Origin: a virus
Lineage: Duplodnaviria > Heunggongvirae > Uroviricota > Caudoviricetes
Virus record (IMG/VR): IMGVR_UViG_3300049596_000585
Coordinates: 1 to 7,208 of that record
Reading direction: 5' to 3' (one strand)
DNA length: 7,208 nt
The notes beneath the pieces were generated by a model. The model was not told the origin of the DNA, did no database searches, and saw only the letters and a list, made by a program, of their open reading frames with translations. Below, in pieces: positions 1 to 7,208 of this stretch. Position numbers and translations under genes: made by a program. Every line of letters begins with the position of its first letter. Position 1 is the stretch's first letter.

Positions 1-782
1 CAGCCGGTGTCAGTGTCCAGTGAGTAGTTATTAAAGCGGATGACCTCCTGACCGAGCCAGCCGTTTATCTCACGGATCCTGTCCTGTAACGGGATAAGCT
101 CATTGCGGACAAAGACCTTTGCCACTTTCTCAATATCACCCAGCGACCCGACGTTCTCCGGCTTGCCGCCCATCAACTGAAAGGGGATGCGGTGCGCGTC
201 CAGCAGGTCTGCGGCACTGGCTTTTTTGATATTAAAAAAATCGTCCTTCGTCGCCACTTCACTGAGCGGGATAATTTTAATGCCGTCGGCTTTTCCCTGT
301 GGGGCATAGAGAAACAGGTTTTTAAAGTTGTTGCGGCCTTTCGACTTCACCATGTTTTCGCGAAGCATTTCGATATCGTTGCGATCCTGCACGGCATCAG
401 TGACGTACATGATGTATCCGGCATGTGCGCCGTTTTCGTAATACTTGCGGCGGAACAGCGTGGCCGACTCATTCAGCCAGGCAGAGTTAAGGGCGCTGAG
501 ATATTCCGGCAGGCCGTACAGCTCCTGATTAATATCGGGCTCCAGCAGGTGAAACACGGAACCGGGCGCGAAGGCTGTCGGTTCGTTGAAGGACGGCACC
601 CACCAGTAAACATCCTCCTCCACGCCACGGCGGGTATATTTTGCCGGTGAGGTTTCCAGTCTGATGACCTTACCGGTGGTGCTGTAACGCTTTTCCAGAA
701 ACGCATTACCGAACACCAGAAAATCCAGCACAAAGCGGCTGAAATCCTGCTGGGAAAGTCGCCGAAAATCGCCAGTGTGCAT
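1..782 (-). CDS. Partial CDS whose 3' end lies beyond the left window edge; phage head/packaging-module protein, tentatively portal (P2 gpQ / PBSX-family-like). The 5' end is uncertain and possibly truncated.
   Basis: Manual translation of the minus strand gives a stop-free frame from at least 782 to position 1 (...LSQQDFSRFVLDFLVFGNAFLEKRYSTTGKVIRLETSPAKYTRRGVEEDVYWWVPSFNEPTAFAPGSVFHLLEPDINQELYGLPEYLSALNSAWLNESATLFRRKYYENGAHAGYIMYVTDAVQDRNDIEMLRENMVKSKGRNNFKNLFLYAPQGKADGIKIIPLSEVATKDDFFNIKKASAADLLDAHRIPFQLMGGKPENVGSLGDIEKVAKVFVRNELIPLQDRIREINGWLGQEVIRFNNYSLDTDTG...). Codon usage is E. coli-like between 1 and about 700. The overlapping + ORF 192..650 in the track translates to low-complexity C/H/R/G-rich sequence typical of an antisense shadow. 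The gene is absent from the ORF track only because it has no stop in the window. There is no Walker A motif, which argues against a terminase ATPase domain. The portal assignment rests on recollection of P2-family portal sequence character, not on a search. The frame stays open upstream to TTG 974, but 783-974 is rich in rare codons (AGG, CGG, CGA, ATA, CTA) and none of the candidate starts (ATG 782, ATG 950, TTG 974) has a Shine-Dalgarno. Confidence 0.45.
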   Translation of the reverse strand, partial: MHTGDFRRLSQQDFSRFVLDFLVFGNAFLEKRYSTTGKVIRLETSPAKYTRRGVEEDVYWWVPSFNEPTAFAPGSVFHLLEPDINQELYGLPEYLSALNSAWLNESATLFRRKYYENGAHAGYIMYVTDAVQDRNDIEMLRENMVKSKGRNNFKNLFLYAPQGKADGIKIIPLSEVATKDDFFNIKKASAADLLDAHRIPFQLMGGKPENVGSLGDIEKVAKVFVRNELIPLQDRIREINGWLGQEVIRFNNYSLDTDTG

Positions 783-914
783 CAGTTCGGTCTGTCGGAA
801 GAAACCCGGAAAGACGGTAAGAAAATTGATTATCCGGCGCGTCCTCTGCTCGGCTTTACCGGTGAGGATGTGCAGATGATTGAAGAGATTATCCTGGCTC
901 ACCTTGAGCGTTAG
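651..914 (+). other. Open + frame ending at TAG 912-914; possible 3' remnant of a rightward gene (candidate tail-completion gpS-like C-terminus) convergent with the AT-rich gene
   Basis: The + frame is stop-free from 651 to 914 (...GKSPKIASVHQFGLSEETRKDGKKIDYPARPLLGFTGEDVQMIEEIILAHLER*). Codon usage between about 777 and 914 is clearly better on + than on - (minus has AGG, CGG, CGA, ATA, CTA). The only in-frame starts are GTG 777 (45 aa), GTG 870 and ATG 876 (12 aa); ATG 876 has a strong SD, GAGGA at 864-868 with a 7-nt spacer. No full-length gene is possible, so this is either a 3' gene remnant or a small ORF. Confidence 0.2.
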
Positions 915-943: not shown

Positions 944-980
944 TAAACATTGAGCGGCCATGCTGGTCGCTCAATGTTTA
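944..980. terminator. Perfect 13-bp inverted repeat (944-956 TAAACATTGAGCG / 968-980 CGCTCAATGTTTA) with an 11-nt loop; candidate bidirectional stem-loop between convergent transcription units
   Basis: Read directly from the sequence. It lies 6 nt downstream of the stop of the minus-strand gene 986..1771 and 30 nt downstream of the + frame stop at 914. U-tracts are weak or displaced on both strands (AAUU on minus; UUUUUAUUU about 15 nt downstream on plus), so it is not a canonical intrinsic terminator. Confidence 0.4.
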
Positions 981-985
981 GAGGC

Positions 986-1771
986 TTATGAGTGATTTTT
1001 ATTTGATGCTTTGTATTCTACAACCTTCTTATTGGCGTAAAGGAATTTTGTATATGACAGGAATATAACCAGACCTGAAATGAAATAGATGAGGGATATT
1101 ATTAATAATGCTTTTTTTTGGCTGTTATTATCTTTAATTTCCTGACTTAACCATTCCGAGTCCTCCTCGTTTAGCTGTAAGAGCTTATTGCAGGCGATCT
1201 CAGGAAGTGTGTCTTTTATAAATATGTTTCGTAGCCTCTTGCAATCGGCAAGGCTATAAGTTGTATTGAATTCAACTGTTTTATTGTTGAAGGATAAAAG
1301 AACTTTGTCACTATAAACATAGTACATCATATTTTTATATGGTATGCCTATGGCATCTCTTACTATAGCGGATTGTTTGTTGTGTATATAACATGCGAAG
1401 AGAATATAAATAATGCTGGACAGAATTACAATTATTGTTTTAATTATGTGTGGTGGTTTTGTTATGTCACCCCAGAAGCGAGTAAGAAAAAAATACGATG
1501 TTTTTAGTTTTCCATCAATCAGCCCCTGCTGTATCATTCTCACATCTTCGATGCCTGATACATTGATTCCGTTAATTATTTTAAATAGTTGAATGTCGCG
1601 CCATTTTTTGTCGAGCATTTTTAACTTTCTGTCTGAATACTCAAAATTGAAATGATGTGCAATAAACCTCATAAGATTACTTTTACCAAAGGTAATAAAT
1701 GTTAATGCTATTAATAAAAATAGATACAAAGAGATAAACCACCACGCATTAGTCACATTATCACTGAACAT
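986..1771 (-). CDS. AT-rich 261-aa predicted inner-membrane protein with three TM segments, function unknown; cargo gene in the slot where P2 carries orf30, between the head/tail-completion side and gene V
   Basis: ORF track 986..1771 (-). ATG at 1771-1769 is preceded by SD AGGAG (complement of 1778-1782) with a 6-nt spacer. GC content is roughly 25-35% against about 50-55% in the flanks. Hydrophobic segments: aa 9-28 (AWWFISLYLFLLIALTFITF; DNA 1688-1747), aa 109-129 (IIKTIIVILSSIIYILFACYI; about 1385-1447), aa 221-240 (ALLIISLIYFISGLVIFLSY; 1052-1111). Loop 1 and the C-tail are Lys/Arg-rich, so the positive-inside rule suggests N-out/C-in. The second loop (about 90 aa) carries two Cys. No recognisable catalytic motif. 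Confidence 0.8.
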   Translation of the reverse strand: MFSDNVTNAWWFISLYLFLLIALTFITFGKSNLMRFIAHHFNFEYSDRKLKMLDKKWRDIQLFKIINGINVSGIEDVRMIQQGLIDGKLKTSYFFLTRFWGDITKPPHIIKTIIVILSSIIYILFACYIHNKQSAIVRDAIGIPYKNMMYYVYSDKVLLSFNNKTVEFNTTYSLADCKRLRNIFIKDTLPEIACNKLLQLNEEDSEWLSQEIKDNNSQKKALLIISLIYFISGLVIFLSYTKFLYANKKVVEYKASNKNHS

Positions 1772-1854
1772 TACGCTCTCCTCGAATGTTGTATGGTCGT
1801 TCTACAAATGAATCCAGATAGCATAACTTTTATATATTGTGCAATCTCACACGC
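1772..1854. promoter_or_regulatory. Divergent intergenic control region between the AT-rich gene and the tail operon; candidate late-promoter activator dyad and -10 element
   Basis: Imperfect dyad TTGT-N11-ACAA at 1789-1807. The reported Ogr/Delta-type site of P2/P4 late promoters is TGT-N12-ACA centred near -55, so the spacing here is one short. TATATA at 1831-1836 lies about 36 bp downstream of the dyad centre. There is no SD in front of the V ATG at 1855. On the opposite strand, a TATATA-containing stretch could serve the divergent membrane-protein gene. Confidence 0.3.
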
Positions 1855-2490
1855 ATGAACACTCTCGCAAATATTCAGGAACTCGCGCGCGCACTGCGCA
1901 ACATGATTCGTACCGGCCTTGTCGTCGAAACCAACCTTAAAGCCGGTCGCTGCCGTGTGCAGACCGGTGGCATGTGCACTGACTGGCTTCAGTGGCTGAC
2001 CCATCGTGCCGGACGTTCGCGCACATGGTGGGCACCTTCCGTGGGGGAACAGGTGCTGATTCTGGCTGTGGGCGGTGAACTCGACACGGCGTTCGTTCTG
2101 CCGGGGATTTATTCCGGCGATAACCCCGCGCCGTCTGCGTCGGCGGATGCCCTGCATATCCGTTTCCCTGACGGGGCGGTGATTGAGTATGAACCCGAAA
2201 CCAGTGCACTCACGGTAAGCGGAATTAAAACGGCCAGCGTGACGGCTTCTGATTCTGTTACTGCCACGGTGCCGGTGGTCATGGTGAAAGCATCAACCCG
2301 CGTCACCCTGGACACACCGGAGGTGGTTTGCACCAACAGGCTGATTACCGGCACGCTGGAAGTGCAGAAGGGCGGGACGATGCGCGGCAACATTGAACAC
2401 ACCGGCGGTGAACTCTCATCAAACGGTAAGGTACTGCATACCCATAAACACCCCGGCGACAGCGGCGGCACAACCGGGAGCCCTCTATGA
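1855..2490 (+). CDS. V: Baseplate spike/assembly protein gpV (P2 V-like, Phage_base_V family)
   Basis: The ORF track frame 1837..2490 starts at TTG, but the internal ATG at 1855 gives a 211-aa product (MNTLANIQELARALRNMIRTG...HKHPGDSGGTTGSPL) matching the length and sequence character of P2 gpV. It is first in the V-W-J-I-H order, and its stop overlaps the W start (ATGA at 2487-2490). Confidence 0.9.
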   Translation: MNTLANIQELARALRNMIRTGLVVETNLKAGRCRVQTGGMCTDWLQWLTHRAGRSRTWWAPSVGEQVLILAVGGELDTAFVLPGIYSGDNPAPSASADALHIRFPDGAVIEYEPETSALTVSGIKTASVTASDSVTATVPVVMVKASTRVTLDTPEVVCTNRLITGTLEVQKGGTMRGNIEHTGGELSSNGKVLHTHKHPGDSGGTTGSPL

Positions 2491-4280: not shown

Positions 4281-7049
4281 ATGAGCACGAAATTTAAAAC
4301 CGTTATCACTACTGCCGGAGCCGCAAAGCTGGCAGCCGCCACTGTCCCCGGCGGGAAAAAAGTAACCCTGTCTGCAATGGCCGTGGGTGACGGTAATGGC
4401 AAATTGCCGGTGCCGGATGCTGGTCAGACGAAACTGGTGCATGAGGTCTGGCGTCACGCCCTGAATAAAGTCAGCGTGGATAACAAGAATAAAAACTATA
4501 TCGTGGCTGAACTGGTTGTACCGCCAGAAGTGGGCGGCTTCTGGATGCGTGAACTTGGTCTGTATGACGATGCCGGAACACTGATTGCGGTCGCTAACAT
4601 GGTAGAAAGCTATAAGCCTGAACTGGCTGAAGGCTCCGGGCGTGCGCAGACCTGCCGCATGGTTATTATTGTCAGTAACGTGGCGTCTGTTGAGCTGAGT
4701 ATTGATGCCAGCACGGTGATGGCGACGCAGGATTACGTCGATAAAGCCATATCCAGTTTTCATCGTACTGTCATTGATGATGTGGTTCTTCAGCATAAAG
4801 TTGTCCACGATATTGACTACGCCGGGATTTTTGACGGTGCGGATAATATGAGTCAGGGGTTCTGTATCTGTGATACGCCGCAGGGAACCAGAATGTTTCT
4901 GCATCAGCCTGTATCGGGTGGCGTAAGGATTGTTGAAACGACATTTAACCCTGACGGAGAAAACGAAAACCCGACGGTCATTTCGTTTTCTCCCGTTTTC
5001 GCTGATATTGGTCACCAGAGTATCGGGGCTGTATGTGAAGACGGTCGCGTGATGCTGTATACCCCGACCGCTGACGGCAAGGGTGTGAATATCATCAACT
5101 GGAATGGGGCTGACACCAGTCTGTTGATTGTTCAGTCAAGTAATGAAGCCGTCCATCTTCATTACAACAGGGATGACCGCCGCACAGTTTATGTTTTCGA
5201 TCGCGCTTCTCTGACGTTTAAACACCGGATTTATCTGTCCACCCAGTCAATGGTGTCGCAGGCATTTCAGGGGATGGCCAGCGATGGTCATTATCTGTTT
5301 GCTTATTACGGTTATACAGGCGTATTTCTGACTCACCGCATTGTTGTATATAACCTGTCAACGGGCGAAGTTGTCAGACAGTTCAATGTGGATGGCGTTC
5401 GTGCCAGGTATGGCCGCCAGAAAATGCTGGGGAATGCAGAGCTGGGGTATCCCGTTTTGCAGGAAGCCGAAGGGCTGGCTCTTCATAACGGAAAACTGTA
5501 TCTGCTCGATATGGATTTCTGGTGTCAGACAGCAGATGTGGTTTCTTTTGAGGGGGCATACTTTGCAGCACGTGCAACAAATTTTTCTGGCCGTTCCCCG
5601 GTGAATCCATCTTACTGGACGCCTACAGCATATGGAACGGCGGCTGCAACGAAATATGATGCCACGAAGTCTTATACGTGTGGCGTGGCGACAAAACGCA
5701 GCAAAGCTGTGGTTTCCGTGGAGGCTTACGACGGCACAGGCTATCTGGTGGACTCCGGCGTGGCGTTTCCTGACAGCCATGCTAGCCTTTTTCTGAGTCC
5801 CAATGCTGTAAATATTGCCCTGTCACCCAATGAAGACTTCCAGGTGGCAGCCTATGAGCAGAATCTGCGCTCGCATCGCCCGTTATTTGAGGTCAGAAAG
5901 GAGGCTCCGGATACAGACACTTCTGCTGCTGTTTTTCGTTTGTACGGGGATGCGTTCCGAACCGGAGAATACACAGGCCGCTTCGTTCAGTGGAAACACC
6001 GACTGAACACCGTGCACGATTGTCTGGAAATACGCGCTGACGTGGATTTGTTGAGCGGTGGCGGGATTAACCTTTACTCAATGAACGATACTCAGTCGGC
6101 GGGGCGCACAAGGCTTTATTGTACCGATGGCAGTGAGACCTGGTCTGTATTATTGAGTCCGGTCTCGCCGGCATTTCATCCCGACCAGGACAAGGCAATG
6201 AATCTGGGGTCATCGCCAAATCGCTGGAATGTGGCATACCTGCAGGGCGTGAATATTAAATCGGATGACGAAACCCAGAAGCGCATGGCCATCAGCACCA
6301 CGCTGAAGGCGGGAGCTTTCCAGGTATCAACAGCCGGGAATCTGGGTATTTATGACGATTCTGCTGACGCTTATGTAATTGCAGCCCGTAGTGACGGCAC
6401 TGCATTCATGCAGATGGATACAGATATTAACGGTGCATTCCGGCCATCGGTTAACAATACCAGCGACCTGGGTGCGCCCAACAAAGCGTTCCGGAGCGTG
6501 TATCTCTGCAACTCGCCGACCGTTGTGTCGGATGCGACGTTAAAGGATACACCGCGCGATGCGACGGCAGCCGAAAACGCGGCATTTGCAGAAATAGCAC
6601 GGCTTCCGGGCGTGTGGCGCTGGTTACAGAGAATTGAGGAGGAGGGCGAGGACGCGCGTCTGCACGCCGGGCCGACAGTCCAGGCCGCGATAGCGGTGAT
6701 GGAGAAACACGGTCTGGACTGGCGGAAATACAGCGCATTTTGTCTGGATTCGTGGGAAGCGGAGGAGGCACAGTACGAAGATATACCGGAAGAGTATGAA
6801 GATATTCCGGTTCAGCCAGCGATTTATTCGGATGAAGGGGAGCTGTTGAGCGGGACAACTCGTGTGCTTACCCGACAGGCGGAAAGGGTTCTTGTTCGCC
6901 CTGCAACCGAAGCAGGAAGCCGTTATCGCTTCCGGAAAGAGGAGCTTCTCTGGTGGTGTCTACGTGCTGTTGTCAGCCAGGTGGATTTGTTAATGGAACG
7001 CTTTGTTGACTTAAATCGTCGTTTGATGAAGTTGGAGACTTCAGAATAA
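4281..7049 (+). CDS. H: Tail fibre protein gpH-like, mosaic: P2-type N-terminal anchor (about aa 1-160), divergent distal receptor-binding region (about aa 161-749), C-terminal S74-type intramolecular chaperone domain (aa 750-922)
   Basis: ORF track 4281..7049, 922 aa, against about 669 aa for P2 gpH. The N-terminus (MSTKFKTVITTAGAAKLAAA...WRHALNKVSVDNKNKNYIVAELVVPPEVGGFWMRELGLYDDAGTLIAVANMVESYKPELAEGSGR...TQDYVDKAI) has the conserved P2 H anchor character. The remainder does not resemble what I recall of P2 H. The C-terminus carries an SDATLK motif followed by ...RLHAGPTVQAA... and a terminal heptad-like segment (LLWWCLRAVVSQVDLLMERFVDLNRRLMKLE), the pattern of Peptidase_S74 intramolecular chaperone domains. 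Confidence 0.9.
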   Translation: MSTKFKTVITTAGAAKLAAATVPGGKKVTLSAMAVGDGNGKLPVPDAGQTKLVHEVWRHALNKVSVDNKNKNYIVAELVVPPEVGGFWMRELGLYDDAGTLIAVANMVESYKPELAEGSGRAQTCRMVIIVSNVASVELSIDASTVMATQDYVDKAISSFHRTVIDDVVLQHKVVHDIDYAGIFDGADNMSQGFCICDTPQGTRMFLHQPVSGGVRIVETTFNPDGENENPTVISFSPVFADIGHQSIGAVCEDGRVMLYTPTADGKGVNIINWNGADTSLLIVQSSNEAVHLHYNRDDRRTVYVFDRASLTFKHRIYLSTQSMVSQAFQGMASDGHYLFAYYGYTGVFLTHRIVVYNLSTGEVVRQFNVDGVRARYGRQKMLGNAELGYPVLQEAEGLALHNGKLYLLDMDFWCQTADVVSFEGAYFAARATNFSGRSPVNPSYWTPTAYGTAAATKYDATKSYTCGVATKRSKAVVSVEAYDGTGYLVDSGVAFPDSHASLFLSPNAVNIALSPNEDFQVAAYEQNLRSHRPLFEVRKEAPDTDTSAAVFRLYGDAFRTGEYTGRFVQWKHRLNTVHDCLEIRADVDLLSGGGINLYSMNDTQSAGRTRLYCTDGSETWSVLLSPVSPAFHPDQDKAMNLGSSPNRWNVAYLQGVNIKSDDETQKRMAISTTLKAGAFQVSTAGNLGIYDDSADAYVIAARSDGTAFMQMDTDINGAFRPSVNNTSDLGAPNKAFRSVYLCNSPTVVSDATLKDTPRDATAAENAAFAEIARLPGVWRWLQRIEEEGEDARLHAGPTVQAAIAVMEKHGLDWRKYSAFCLDSWEAEEAQYEDIPEEYEDIPVQPAIYSDEGELLSGTTRVLTRQAERVLVRPATEAGSRYRFRKEELLWWCLRAVVSQVDLLMERFVDLNRRLMKLETSE
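6528..7046 (+). other. C-terminal intramolecular chaperone / autoproteolysis domain of the tail fibre (Peptidase_S74-like); predicted cleavage just before Ser750 with a Ser750/Lys755 dyad
   Basis: TCG (Ser750) at 6528-6530 begins SDATLK, with Ser and Lys spaced 5 residues apart as in the endosialidase-type S-D-x-x-x-K dyad. Downstream are an R-x-H-x-G...Q block (ARLHAGPTVQAA) and a C-terminal amphipathic helix. Domain length is about 173 aa. Assignment is by motif recognition only. Confidence 0.6.
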
Positions 7050-7208
7050 ACAAGCCTTAATGAGTATCTGCTTAAAATAGTGTTATCTACAGATCAAACT
7101 TTAGTTGATACGAGTCACTGTCCTCCCCGTAACAACTGGAGTTAAAAGATGTGATGGCATATAAATATAACATCAAATAATTATTTTTTTTGCCCCTCAC
7201 CCTTAATT

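What the first reader, a model, noticed from the sequence alone, without database searches (positions are those of the whole stretch)
986..1771. AT-rich cargo gene encoding a three-TM membrane protein, divergent from the tail operon: candidate exclusion/defence or conversion gene
GC content drops sharply here (about 25-35% against about 50-55% in the flanks), which marks horizontally acquired cargo. The gene occupies the non-essential orf30 slot of P2-like phages, between the tail-completion side and V. It has its own strong SD and is transcribed opposite to the late operon, so it could be expressed from the prophage independently of late activation. The product has three predicted TM helices, Lys/Arg-rich cytoplasmic segments, a predicted periplasmic loop of about 90 aa with two Cys, and no recognisable enzymatic motif. 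Small prophage-encoded membrane proteins of this kind are typical superinfection-exclusion or abortive-infection effectors, but I could not assign a function from the sequence.
Basis: partly seen in the sequence, partly recalled or inferred. Interest (0 to 1): 0.7.

Follow-up and report, generated by a model that had tools for sequence, protein, structure and literature searches.

The report
P2 orf30: orphan membrane moron gene
The AT-rich gene is real and is the E. coli B copy of phage P2's long-known but never-explained gene orf30, a three-pass inner-membrane protein that travels alone between prophage cargo slots and outlives its prophages, so it probably helps the host cell, but its actual job is still untested.

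Summary
Window 986-1771 (-) is an intact 261-aa ORF with 32% GC between 53-58% GC flanks. It has an AGGAG Shine-Dalgarno, a terminator hairpin, three hydrophobic helices and an 89-aa loop with two Cys.

It is not merely "in the orf30 slot". It is the orf30 ortholog itself: 84% aa identity to P2 Orf30 and a full-length match to phrog_2407. It sits in the defective P2-like prophage of E. coli B.

New here:
- The family is small (44 clusters at 50% identity) and has no fold or sequence relative in PDB, BFVD or PADLOC, nor to P22 SieA.
- It always travels as a single AT-rich gene. It occurs in three different P2/186-type cargo positions and as chromosomal islets.
- It stays intact after the surrounding prophage decays (E. 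coli B, WCHEC020031, Pantoea ARC270).
- It is clearly coding. 83 of 84 complete copies are intact, and dN/dS is 0.41 against 0.06-0.14 for neighbouring genes. The loops are constrained (0.25-0.34) and TM1/TM3 are nearly neutral.

The best reading is a lysogen-expressed, stand-alone envelope protein, most likely a narrow superinfection-exclusion factor. This is inference only. E. coli B, which carries it, is permissive for T phages and most BASEL phages.

Already known as an object, function open. Interest is moderate.

The parts
986..1771 (-). orf30 coding sequence, 261 aa. Ortholog of phage P2 Orf30 and member of phrog_2407.
   Evidence: ORF. 83.9% aa identity to P2 Orf30 and 99.2% to Peduovirus P24A7b. 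phrog_2407 matched over 1-261/261, E 6e-143. dN/dS 0.41-0.46, and 83/84 complete copies intact.
1776..1783 (-). Shine-Dalgarno GAGGAGAG, with the AGGAG core 6 nt upstream of the ATG.
   Evidence: Sequence read. The AGGAGAG core is identical in all 8 related phages and prophages aligned; the first base of the octamer (1783) is G in the window and L010 and A in the other six.
1688..1747 (-). TM1 (residues 9-28), an N-out signal-anchor. The 8-residue N-tail has no K/R.
   Evidence: Hydropathy peak at 11-29 and 0 K/R in the N-tail of 27/27 homologs. AF2 helix 4-40. dN/dS 1.2.
1454..1687 (-). Loop 1 (residues 29-106), predicted cytoplasmic helical domain. It carries the family's best-conserved motif, D-x-Q-L-F-K/R-x-x-N-G-I-N-V...D-A...G-x-L.
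   Evidence: Alignment A2: G68 and G87 invariant; G29, Q61 and D76 at least 90% conserved. Net positive charge (15.4% K/R vs 10% D/E) and mostly no Cys. dN/dS 0.34. AF2 helices 48-67, 74-86 and 91-94.
1379..1453 (-). TM2 (residues 107-131).
   Evidence: Hydropathy peak at 109-127. AF2 helix 109-134. dN/dS 0.49.
1112..1378 (-). Loop 2 (residues 132-220), predicted periplasmic alpha/beta domain: four short strands (141-173) followed by helices. C177 and C194 probably form a disulfide.
   Evidence: Exactly 2 Cys in this loop in 27/27 homologs. C194 and I212 are invariant. AF2 strands 141-173 and helices 174-179 and 189-198. dN/dS 0.25, and about 0.1 for residues 191-220.
1043..1111 (-). TM3 (residues 221-243). 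It is part of one long helix (202-260) that runs from the periplasm to the cytoplasm.
   Evidence: Hydropathy peak at 221-239. AF2 helix 202-260. dN/dS 0.93-1.16.
989..1042 (-). Lys-rich C-terminal tail (residues 244-261), predicted cytoplasmic. N247 and K254 are conserved.
   Evidence: 20% K/R across the family. K254 is at least 90% conserved.
944..978 (.). Perfect inverted repeat AAACATTGAGCG...CGCTCAATGTTT between the convergent stops of S and orf30. It is a shared, bidirectional terminator hairpin.
   Evidence: RNAfold dG is -29.5 kcal/mol on the + strand and -23.2 on the - strand. The homologous P2 position is annotated as the 'putative rho-independent terminator for O operon'.
1784..1854 (.). 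Divergent control region: the 71 nt between the Shine-Dalgarno (1776-1783) and the V start codon at 1855. It contains the late promoter pV and its Ogr/activator binding site, at about 1786-1813 by homology to the P2 annotation. Any orf30 promoter must overlap it or the 5' end of V.
   Evidence: P2 annotation transferred by alignment. The region is nearly invariant in 8 loci. No consensus sigma-70 site lies on the - strand upstream of orf30.
747..914 (+). Left boundary of the slot: the 3' fragment of tail-completion gene S. In this defective prophage it is fused to a portal (Q) fragment.
   Evidence: Pfam Phage_tail_S. REL606 and strain C annotations mark it as a pseudogene fragment.
1855..2490 (+). 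Right boundary of the slot: baseplate spike gene V.
   Evidence: Pfam Phage_base_V, Phage_spike and Apex. Matches the P2 gpV annotation.

Best explanation
Identity (shown). This is the E. coli B-lineage allele of bacteriophage P2 orf30. It is a self-contained, AT-rich, horizontally mobile single-gene cassette (a 'moron') lying between tail gene S and baseplate gene V, antisense to the late operons. Here it sits inside a defective P2-like prophage.

Product (predicted). A three-pass inner-membrane protein with N-out/C-in topology. It has a conserved ~78-aa cytoplasmic helical domain and a ~89-aa periplasmic alpha/beta domain, probably stapled by a C177-C194 disulfide. TM1 and TM3 behave as interchangeable hydrophobic anchors.

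Function (inferred, not shown). The protein is made in the lysogen independently of Ogr-driven late transcription. It acts alone and non-enzymatically at the inner membrane to the benefit of the host cell. The most likely mode is narrow-spectrum superinfection exclusion in the manner of P22 SieA: the periplasmic and membrane parts obstruct the trans-envelope DNA-delivery step of particular incoming phages, and the conserved cytoplasmic domain holds or engages a conserved inner-membrane host partner. The confidence given refers to this functional reading. The identity and architecture are near-certain.
For: Identity:
- 83.9% aa identity to P2 Orf30, with the same position and strand.
- Full-length match to phrog_2407.
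- The locus is 99.9% identical to E. coli B REL606.

The gene is real and constrained:
- 83/84 complete copies are intact, with 57 unique sequences and no indels.
- dN/dS is 0.41, with loops at 0.25-0.34 and TM1/TM3 at about 1.

It is autonomous cargo:
- Every homolog examined has 32-36% GC, whatever the host GC.
- It is always a single gene with no conserved partner.
- It occurs in the S-V slot of E. coli and Enterobacter-type P2-likes.
- It occurs directly after int, overlapping int by 8 nt and next to att, in a Pantoea 186-like prophage.
- It occurs directly downstream of a P2-type portal, which is the Q side of the gpA-gpQ defence hotspot (hotspot defined in PMC9122126).
- It occurs as chromosomal single-gene islets in Enterobacter.

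It benefits the host rather than the virion:
- It is intact in the E. coli B remnant, which has lost the head and lysis genes.
- It is intact in WCHEC020031, where Q and V are truncated.
- It is intact in Pantoea ARC270, where only an int stump and the att repeat remain.

Topology and architecture.

Analogy to SieA: P22 sieA is likewise a three-TM inner-membrane protein gene. It sits antisense behind a late virion gene with its own promoter, and its best-conserved motif is cytoplasmic (PMC10883804).
Against: - There is no experimental phenotype and no expression evidence in the searchable literature.
- No consensus sigma-70 promoter lies upstream.
- There is no sequence or profile relation to SieA (hhalign probability 0.3%), to any superinfection-exclusion PHROG or to PADLOC models.
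- E. coli B REL606 carries the gene, yet it is lysed by most BASEL phages and is the original T1-T7 host (PMC8594841).
- From my own knowledge: the exclusion phenotypes of P2 lysogens map to old, tin and fun, and P2 vir mutants plate on P2 lysogens. Orf30 therefore does not block P2 itself or the classical coliphages.
- The S-V slot is nearly binary, either orf30 or empty, with about 3% other cargo. The hyper-diverse defence hotspots look different.
- No significantly positively selected sites were found in the periplasmic loop, and the most conserved part is cytoplasmic.
Confidence: 0.4

Rival explanations
1. It is a non-phage lysogenic-conversion or immunity factor. On this reading, the membrane protein protects or adapts the envelope against something other than phage. 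Examples are an orphan immunity protein against a membrane-targeting bacteriocin, tailocin, T6SS or CDI toxin, or a modulator of an inner-membrane host complex that changes stress tolerance or colonisation fitness.
For: - It is retained after prophage decay and occurs as stand-alone chromosomal islets. That pattern fits any host-beneficial trait, not only phage defence.
- The conserved cytoplasmic domain suggests a conserved host partner.
- The host strain is broadly phage-permissive.
- The slot shows low diversity and the gene shows no arms-race signature.
Against: - There is no toxin or effector partner gene next to any copy.
- There is no similarity to known immunity families. One Colicin-K-immunity hit at E 0.11 in 1 of 27 sequences is noise.
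- Most occurrences are in P2/186-type phage cargo slots, where the characterised cargo is mainly anti-phage (PMC9122126; PMC13586616).
Confidence: 0.22
2. It is an abortive-infection type membrane effector. On this reading, Orf30 sits silently in the inner membrane, senses an infection cue through one of its soluble domains, then oligomerises and depolarises or permeabilises the membrane. The infected cell dies before phage release.
For: - It is a small multi-TM prophage protein with no enzymatic domain, and it acts as a single gene.
- It is located in phage cargo slots, including the gpA-gpQ hotspot side.
- REL606 shows 'lysis without plaques' for Nonagvirus and a T7-like phage. The authors attribute this to unidentified cryptic-prophage systems (PMC8594841).
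Against: - TM1 and TM3 evolve almost neutrally (dN/dS about 1). This is unexpected if the helices form a specific pore.
- There are no PADLOC hits.
- There is no sensor-type domain and no partner gene.
- The REL606 phenotype could equally come from its ABC-three-component system or from other prophages.
Confidence: 0.15
3. It is a phage lytic-cycle accessory. On this reading, Orf30 serves the phage itself, for example by fine-tuning lysis timing (an antiholin- or holin-regulator-like role), by preventing re-adsorption or re-injection of progeny into lysing cells, or by helping tail/baseplate assembly at the membrane.
For: - It lies between the lysis/tail-completion block and the baseplate operon.
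- Its 5' region overlaps the Ogr-dependent pV promoter.
- Three TM helices with N-out/C-in is the class I holin topology.
- It is carried by viable phages: P2, P24A7b, vB_EcoM-12474II-V and the Yersinia vB_YpM phages.
Against: - It is antisense to both late operons.
- It is absent from most close relatives that are viable phages.
- It is 261 aa with two large loops, against about 100 aa for holins, and it lies outside the lysis cassette. In related intact prophages the S-upstream block is annotated with its own holin, endolysin and LysB/C.
- It persists where the phage can no longer lyse or assemble.
- It also exists outside prophages.
Confidence: 0.08
4. It has no cellular function. On this reading, it is an AT-rich hitch-hiking ORF that persists through linkage and recombination with neighbouring phage DNA and is silenced by H-NS.
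For: - It is very AT-rich, with an excess of spurious promoter-like sites (8 found against 3.7 expected).
- No function has been assigned in about 30 years.
- dN/dS is 3-7 times higher than in neighbouring genes.
Against: - dN/dS is well below 1 in both soluble domains (0.25-0.34, and about 0.1 for residues 191-220).
- There are no indels or stops in 83/84 copies at up to 14% divergence.
- Architecture, Cys pair and motifs are conserved down to about 20% identity across 27 clusters.
- It is retained while flanking phage genes decay.
Confidence: 0.05

Closest known systems
Bacteriophage P2 Orf30 (AAD03281.1; PHROG family phrog_2407, 'unknown function')
   Same: It is the same gene. Identity is 83.9% at the protein level and about 91% at the nucleotide level. 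Length is identical (261 aa, no indels). It has the same S-V position, the same antisense orientation, the same terminator hairpin and the same pV/Ogr region. The phrog_2407 match is full-length at E 6e-143.
   Different: This is an allelic variant that sits in the defective P2-like prophage of E. coli B rather than in a viable phage. Most of the aa differences lie in TM1, TM2 and TM3.
P22 SieA (inner-membrane superinfection-exclusion protein; PMC10883804)
   Same: It works like Orf30 only by analogy. Both are prophage-encoded, single-gene, non-enzymatic, three-TM inner-membrane proteins. Both genes are embedded antisense next to late virion genes. In both, the best-conserved motif is predicted to be cytoplasmic.
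   Different: There is no detectable homology (hhalign probability 0.3%). SieA is 162-164 aa without large soluble loops, whereas Orf30 is 261 aa with 78-aa and 89-aa domains. SieA has a mapped promoter and a demonstrated DNA-injection block; Orf30 has neither.
Pfam DUF6216 (PF19723), uncharacterised proteobacterial membrane proteins
   Same: 10 of 27 Orf30-family representatives give weak hits (best E 8.7e-7). Length (about 250-290 aa) and N-terminal region are similar.
   Different: The window protein itself gives no DUF6216 hit even at E <= 10 (max_evalue 0.01; E <= 1). The one member whose bit score was examined, P0038, is below the gathering score (24.3 vs 27.3 bits); scores for the other nine were not retrieved. 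The link is at most superfamily-level and carries no functional information.
P2 lysogenic-conversion/defence genes old, tin and fun(Z), and the cargo of the gpA-gpQ and Z/fun hotspots (PMC9122126, PMC13586616)
   Same: All are non-essential, AT-rich, horizontally acquired cargo sitting between conserved P2 genes. The orf30 region is the third classical variable region of P2-like phages (PMC3091744). One family member lies next to gpQ.
   Different: old, tin and fun have demonstrated anti-phage phenotypes and soluble products; Orf30 has no phenotype. The S-V slot is almost binary (orf30 in about 28%, empty in about 62-69%, other cargo in about 3%) rather than hyper-diverse. Orf30 matches no DefenseFinder- or PADLOC-type model.
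Class I holins (three TM, N-out/C-in; e.g. lambda S, P2 Y)
   Same: The predicted number of TM helices and the overall orientation are the same.
   Different: Orf30 is 2.5 times longer, with two folded soluble domains. It is antisense and outside the lysis cassette. It is retained where lysis genes are deleted. There is no Pfam holin hit.

Membership tests
P2 Orf30 / phrog_2407 | Full-length sequence match to the family profile | tested here: met
   phrog_2407 matched over 1-261 of 261, E 6.1e-143. All 27 representatives of the wider family also hit phrog_2407.
P2 Orf30 / phrog_2407 | Position between S and V, antisense to the late operons | tested here: met
   The arrangement is the same in 12 related loci and in 32-39%-identical homologs of Enterobacter-type P2-likes.
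Moron (autonomous cargo cassette in a phage genome) | Base composition distinct from the surrounding phage genes | tested here: met
   GC 0.322 against 0.53-0.58 in the flanks. Homologs have 32-36% GC in hosts of 45-60% GC.
Moron (autonomous cargo cassette in a phage genome) | Own terminator | tested here: met
   Hairpin at 944-978, 8 nt past the stop codon, dG -23.2 kcal/mol on the - strand. It lacks a clear U-run, so function as an intrinsic terminator is inferred.
Moron (autonomous cargo cassette in a phage genome) | Own promoter active in the lysogen | tested here: inconclusive
   No consensus sigma-70 site lies on the - strand upstream. Only weak hexamers overlap the pV -10 region. No transcript data were found.
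Superinfection-exclusion inner-membrane proteins (P22 SieA type) | Sequence or profile homology to SieA | tested here: not met
   hhalign of the family profile against P22 SieA gives probability 0.3%. No superinfection-exclusion PHROG was hit.
Superinfection-exclusion inner-membrane proteins (P22 SieA type) | Multi-pass inner-membrane protein encoded by a prophage | tested here: met
   Three predicted TM helices and a prophage location. Membrane localisation is predicted, not shown.
Superinfection-exclusion inner-membrane proteins (P22 SieA type) | Blocks DNA entry of specific superinfecting phages | not testable with these tools
   This needs EOP and K+ efflux/DNA-injection assays. Indirect negative evidence: REL606 is permissive for most coliphages.
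Known anti-phage defence systems (PADLOC-DB 2.0.0) | Match to any defence-system protein model | tested here: not met
   The window protein gives 0 hits at E <= 10. Among 27 relatives there are only three unrelated single hits at E of 0.007 or worse.
Pfam DUF6216 (PF19723) | Score at or above the Pfam gathering threshold (27.3 bits) | tested here: not met
   The window protein does not hit DUF6216. P0038 scores 24.3 bits. 10 of 27 relatives hit weakly.
Class I holin | Small (about 70-110 aa) protein encoded in the lysis cassette and co-transcribed with the endolysin | tested here: not met
   It is 261 aa, antisense and outside the lysis genes. It is retained where the lysis genes are deleted.
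Solved or predicted structural families (PDB, BFVD) | Significant fold match | tested here: not met

The most novel reading that the evidence does not exclude
Orf30 may found a previously unrecognised family of single-gene, membrane-embedded anti-phage or envelope-immunity proteins with a new fold: a three-TM bundle, a disulfide-stapled periplasmic alpha/beta domain and a conserved cytoplasmic helical domain. On this reading the family hops between at least three cargo slots of P2/186-type phages and is domesticated by Enterobacterales after prophage decay. That would give phage P2 a fourth lysogenic-conversion function after old, tin and fun.
Probability: 0.35. Interest if true: 0.6.

Novelty: already known. 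Interest (0 to 1): 0.4.

Why it matters
P2 is a founding model temperate phage, and orf30 is one of its last genes with no assigned role. It is present in about 8.5% of complete E. coli genomes (464 of 5426) and in about 28% of those that carry the P2-type R-S/V-W tail region.

The gene also sits in E. coli B, the ancestor of BL21 and of the LTEE strain REL606. Any membrane activity could therefore matter for a workhorse strain.

The pattern found here makes a host-beneficial function likely and cheaply testable. The gene is a stand-alone cassette, it occupies several cargo slots, it survives prophage decay, and only its two soluble domains are under purifying selection.

If the function is exclusion, it would add a structurally new, single-protein membrane mechanism to the defence catalogue. 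It would also flag the S-V and int-att slots of P2/186-like phages as places to look for more. If it has no phage-related role, it is a warning against equating 'AT-rich prophage membrane protein' with defence.

Tried and rejected
- **Family scans.** Pfam, NCBIfam and PADLOC scans of the protein and of 27 relatives gave nothing above threshold. The DUF6535, MnhG, Colicin-K-immunity, HamA, PD-T4-10_B and Csm2 hits are weak, single-member matches (the first two lie on hydrophobic stretches, residues 3-38 and 108-134).
- **Homology to P22 SieA.** Rejected.
- **Homology to the alternative S-V cargo.** The R18C-type 246-aa ORF is unrelated.
- **Diversifying selection as an arms-race signature.** dN/dS is elevated, but the excess is localised to TM1 and TM3. 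No site was significant in a SLAC-like count on 57 unique alleles. The method is crude: an NJ tree with parsimony, and recombination is ignored.
- **Promoter search.** No consensus site lies upstream.
- **Rfam.** No RNA family anywhere in the window.
- **Literature.** No functional study of orf30, phrog_2407 or DUF6216 was found. The Christie & Calendar P2 review is not held.
- **Genome-collection scans.** The search for related loci with the 27-sequence alignment failed for lack of a conserved stretch. The 6-sequence alignment found only 3 Enterobacter genomes, because the collection holds one genome per species.
Full report
**1. The observation**

The window has an ATG-initiated ORF of 261 aa at 986..1771 on the minus strand.
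- Its GC content is 0.322. The flanks are 0.528 to the left and 0.576 for V-I to the right.
- On the minus strand, GAGGAGAG lies at 1776-1783, with AGGAG 6 nt before the ATG.
- A perfect 35-nt hairpin (944-978; dG -29.5 / -23.2 kcal/mol on the two strands) lies between the convergent stops of S and of this ORF.
- Pfam identifies the neighbours as the 3' end of tail-completion gene S (747-914), then V, W, J, I and the tail fibre H, all on the plus strand.
- Kyte-Doolittle analysis gives three hydrophobic peaks at residues 11-29, 109-127 and 221-239.
- The loop between TM2 and TM3 is 89 aa and holds two Cys (C177, C194).

**2. What it is**

The gene is not different cargo in the orf30 slot. It is orf30.
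- tblastn against phage genomes gives 83.9% identity over all 261 residues to P2 Orf30, which is annotated 'nonessential'. It gives 99.2% to Peduovirus P24A7b and 75-93% to other Peduovirus phages of E. coli and Yersinia. All hits are at the same position and strand.
- The protein matches PHROG phrog_2407 ('unknown function') end to end (E 6e-143).
- Every database name for it is 'hypothetical protein'.
- The window is 99.94% identical to the defective P2-like prophage of E. coli B REL606, apart from a 90-nt in-frame difference in H.
- That prophage keeps int, C, cox, A, an ABC-three-component defence system, a portal fragment fused to an S fragment, orf30, V-W-J-I-H, a glycosyltransferase, FI, fragments of FII and D, and ogrK.
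- The head genes, the lysis genes and part of the tail genes are gone, yet orf30 is intact.

**3. It is a real, constrained gene**

In 13 diverse copies the gene is always 786 nt with no indel or stop. Nucleotide identity falls to 86%, while the flanking R, S, V, W and J genes stay at 94-99%.
- Nei-Gojobori dN/dS is 0.46, against 0.04-0.13 for the six neighbouring genes.
- With 80 further IMG/VR loci, 83 of 84 complete copies are intact and 57 are unique alleles.
- A tree-based count gives dN/dS 0.41, against V 0.14, W 0.085 and J 0.057.
- The excess is localised. The values are TM1 1.23, TM3 0.93, TM2 0.49, loop 1 0.34 and loop 2 0.25. A pairwise analysis gives about 0.1 for residues 191-220.
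- No site reached significance for positive selection.

So the two soluble domains are the constrained, functional parts. TM1 and TM3 behave as generic hydrophobic anchors. There is no clear arms-race signature, though the test used is weak.

**4. The family**

A word-indexed search found only E. coli-type alleles and one Enterobacter protein at 42% identity.
- An exhaustive HMM scan of 1.84 billion cluster representatives found 44 clusters. About 25 are full-length (240-290 aa) with the same architecture.
- In the 27-sequence alignment, G68, G87, C194 and I212 are invariant, and G29, Q61, D76 and K254 are at least 90% conserved.
- Loop 1 carries the motif D-x-Q-L-F-K/R-x-x-N-G-I-N-V...D-A. 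Loop 2 carries A-C-x-Y-L and E-L-x-x-A-I.
- All 27 sequences have no K/R before TM1, exactly two Cys in loop 2 and a K/R-rich C tail. Loop 1 is net positive and loop 2 is neutral.
- This supports N-out/C-in, with loop 1 cytoplasmic and loop 2 periplasmic and probably disulfide-bonded.
- AlphaFold2 with this alignment gives pLDDT 85.3 and pTM 0.73. The model has helix 4-40 (TM1 and its extension), cytoplasmic helices 48-67, 74-86 and 91-94, and TM2 at 109-134. A four-stranded sheet at 141-173 is followed by helices 174-179 and 189-198, and one 59-residue helix (202-260) contains TM3.
- Neither model finds a meaningful structural neighbour, and the family profile finds nothing in PDB sequences.
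- Ten of the 27 members touch Pfam DUF6216 weakly; the window protein does not, and the one member whose score was checked is below threshold.
- PADLOC is negative for all members.

**5. Genomic behaviour**

In complete E. coli genomes the gene is present in 464 of 5426, and 461 of those copies are full-length. That is about 28% of the 1664 genomes with a P2-type R-S/V-W region.
- An evenly spaced sample of those junctions shows about 13/60 with orf30, about 37/60 empty and 2/60 with an unrelated 246-aa plus-strand ORF, the one noted in phage R18C (PMC6823313).
- In E. coli the slot is therefore nearly binary and not a high-turnover hotspot.
- Homologs at only 32-39% identity occupy the same slot in the same antisense orientation in Enterobacter-type P2-like phages, whose V is 72-86% identical. 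Some of these carry a second AT-rich cargo gene beside it.

Elsewhere the family appears in other contexts:
- (i) It lies directly after the integrase of a 186-like Pantoea prophage. It is on the cI-int strand, overlaps int by 8 nt and sits just inside the att repeat.
- (ii) It lies at the same Pantoea chromosomal site in another strain where the prophage is gone. Only the att repeat, an 79-aa integrase stump and the intact homolog remain.
- (iii) It lies 238 nt downstream of a P2-type portal gene (69% identical to the window's Q fragment). This is the Q side of the gpA-gpQ defence hotspot (PMC9122126).
- (iv) It forms single-gene 36%-GC islets in 59%-GC Enterobacter chromosomes with no phage genes nearby, and it lies next to LysE/LysR genes in another contig.

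No partner gene is conserved. Every copy measured has 32-36% GC.

A second decayed E. coli prophage (WCHEC020031, with Q and V truncated) also keeps orf30 intact.

**6. Control region**

The 83 nt between the orf30 ATG and the V start (1772-1854) are nearly invariant. By homology to the P2 annotation they contain the Ogr/activator site and the late promoter pV.
- A consensus scan finds no sigma-70 promoter for orf30 there, and finds an excess of spurious sites inside the AT-rich ORF.
- Weak hexamers overlap the pV -10 region.
- Whether the gene is transcribed in lysogens therefore remains unshown.
- The Pantoea arrangement within the lysogenic cI-int block is the best indirect argument that family members are expressed from the prophage state.

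**7. How it most likely works**

*Shown:* it is an autonomous, mobile, single-gene cassette. It is coding and under purifying selection on its two soluble domains. It is retained when the surrounding phage is dead or absent.

*Predicted:* it is a three-pass inner-membrane protein with a small cytoplasmic helical domain and a small disulfide-stapled periplasmic domain, and it has no catalytic motif.

*Inferred:* it acts stoichiometrically at the inner membrane for the benefit of the cell.

The closest mechanistic analogue is P22 SieA. [quoted passage not shown] Its most conserved motif is cytoplasmic (PMC10883804). Its gene also sits antisense behind a late gene with its own promoter.

I therefore rank a narrow superinfection-exclusion role first (about 0.4).

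The case is circumstantial and there is real counter-evidence.
- There is no homology to SieA.
- There are no defence-model hits.
- The slot is close to binary.
- There is no diversifying selection in the exposed loop.
- E. coli B, which carries the gene, is lysed by most BASEL phages and is the historical host of T1-T7 (PMC8594841).
- From general knowledge, the exclusion phenotypes of P2 lysogens map to old, tin and fun, and P2 vir plates on P2 lysogens.

Any exclusion must therefore be narrow, or directed at phages not yet tested.

The rivals are:
- a non-phage envelope or immunity function (0.22);
- an Abi-type membrane effector (0.15), disfavoured by the near-neutral TM helices;
- a lytic-cycle accessory (0.08), disfavoured by the orientation and by retention without lysis or assembly genes;
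- no function (0.05), disfavoured by the selection data.

**8. Comparison and novelty**

As an object this is already known. orf30 has been annotated in P2 since the 1990s. Its region is one of the three classical variable regions of P2-like phages, together with the TO region and Z/fun (PMC3091744).
- Recent hotspot studies concentrate on gpA-gpQ and Z/fun and do not test orf30 (PMC9122126; PMC13586616; bioRxiv 10.1101/2024.10.15.618418).
- This analysis adds the delimitation of the family, its topology and model, the selection profile, the multi-slot and post-decay distribution, and the negative results against every known family.
- The function is still open.

**9. Verdict**

Interest is moderate (0.4). 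A specialist would not be surprised by an AT-rich moron in P2. However, the gene is common, sits in model strains, has a fold with no known relative and is cheap to test.

Noticed in passing
window 1-914: The C-terminal 252 codons of a P2-type portal gene (Q, - strand, 3-758) abut the last ~55 codons of S (747-914, +). The whole head and lysis block from P to R is deleted. This is the defective P2-like prophage of E. coli B.
   Followed up: yes
window 4281-7049, near 5120: The tail-fibre gene H (922 aa) carries a C-terminal Peptidase_S74 intramolecular-chaperone domain. It differs from REL606 H (952 aa) by a 90-nt in-frame gap. No G-type assembly gene follows it in the window.
   Followed up: partly
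window 7050-7208; L027 16351-17656: The window ends in a second AT-rich stretch (33% GC). In REL606 this leads to a family-2 glycosyltransferase and a small ORF on the minus strand, in the Z/fun cargo slot. This is a possible surface-modifying conversion gene.
   Followed up: partly
L027 4993-8684 (REL606, upstream of the window): An ABC-three-component system (three annotated proteins plus a small ORF) occupies the gpA-gpQ defence hotspot of the same defective prophage.
   Followed up: no
L030 1131-1871 (+); L029 1131-1860: The alternative cargo of the S-V slot is a 246-aa plus-strand ORF, the one reported in phage R18C. It is unrelated to Orf30 and has only sub-threshold HNH and Endonuclease_1 hits. 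In one genome it is split into two ORFs.
   Followed up: partly
L104 7946-8767 (-): In Enterobacter-type P2-like phages, a second AT-rich cargo gene lies between the orf30 homolog and S. It encodes 273 aa with two N-terminal hydrophobic segments and then a helical soluble part. It is co-directional with the late genes and matches no family.
   Followed up: partly
window 1075-1537: There is an excess of sigma-70-like promoter matches inside the AT-rich ORF on both strands (8 found, 3.7 expected). This is typical of AT-rich acquired DNA and may produce spurious or antisense transcripts.
   Followed up: no
L088 3620-4401: This is the only one of 84 complete orf30 copies with a 1-nt gap. It may be a frameshifted pseudogene or a sequencing error.
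   Followed up: no
L019 2461-7397: The chromosomal Enterobacter copy sits beside an ECF sigma factor and a DsbD/DsbA/DsbC-like (Scs-type) thiol-disulfide cluster. This is probably coincidental, but it is worth noting given the conserved periplasmic Cys pair.
   Followed up: no
L017 878-1561: Another Enterobacter copy, at a contig end, lies next to an OMP_b-brl (Ail/Lom-like) outer-membrane protein gene, which is a typical prophage moron.
   Followed up: no
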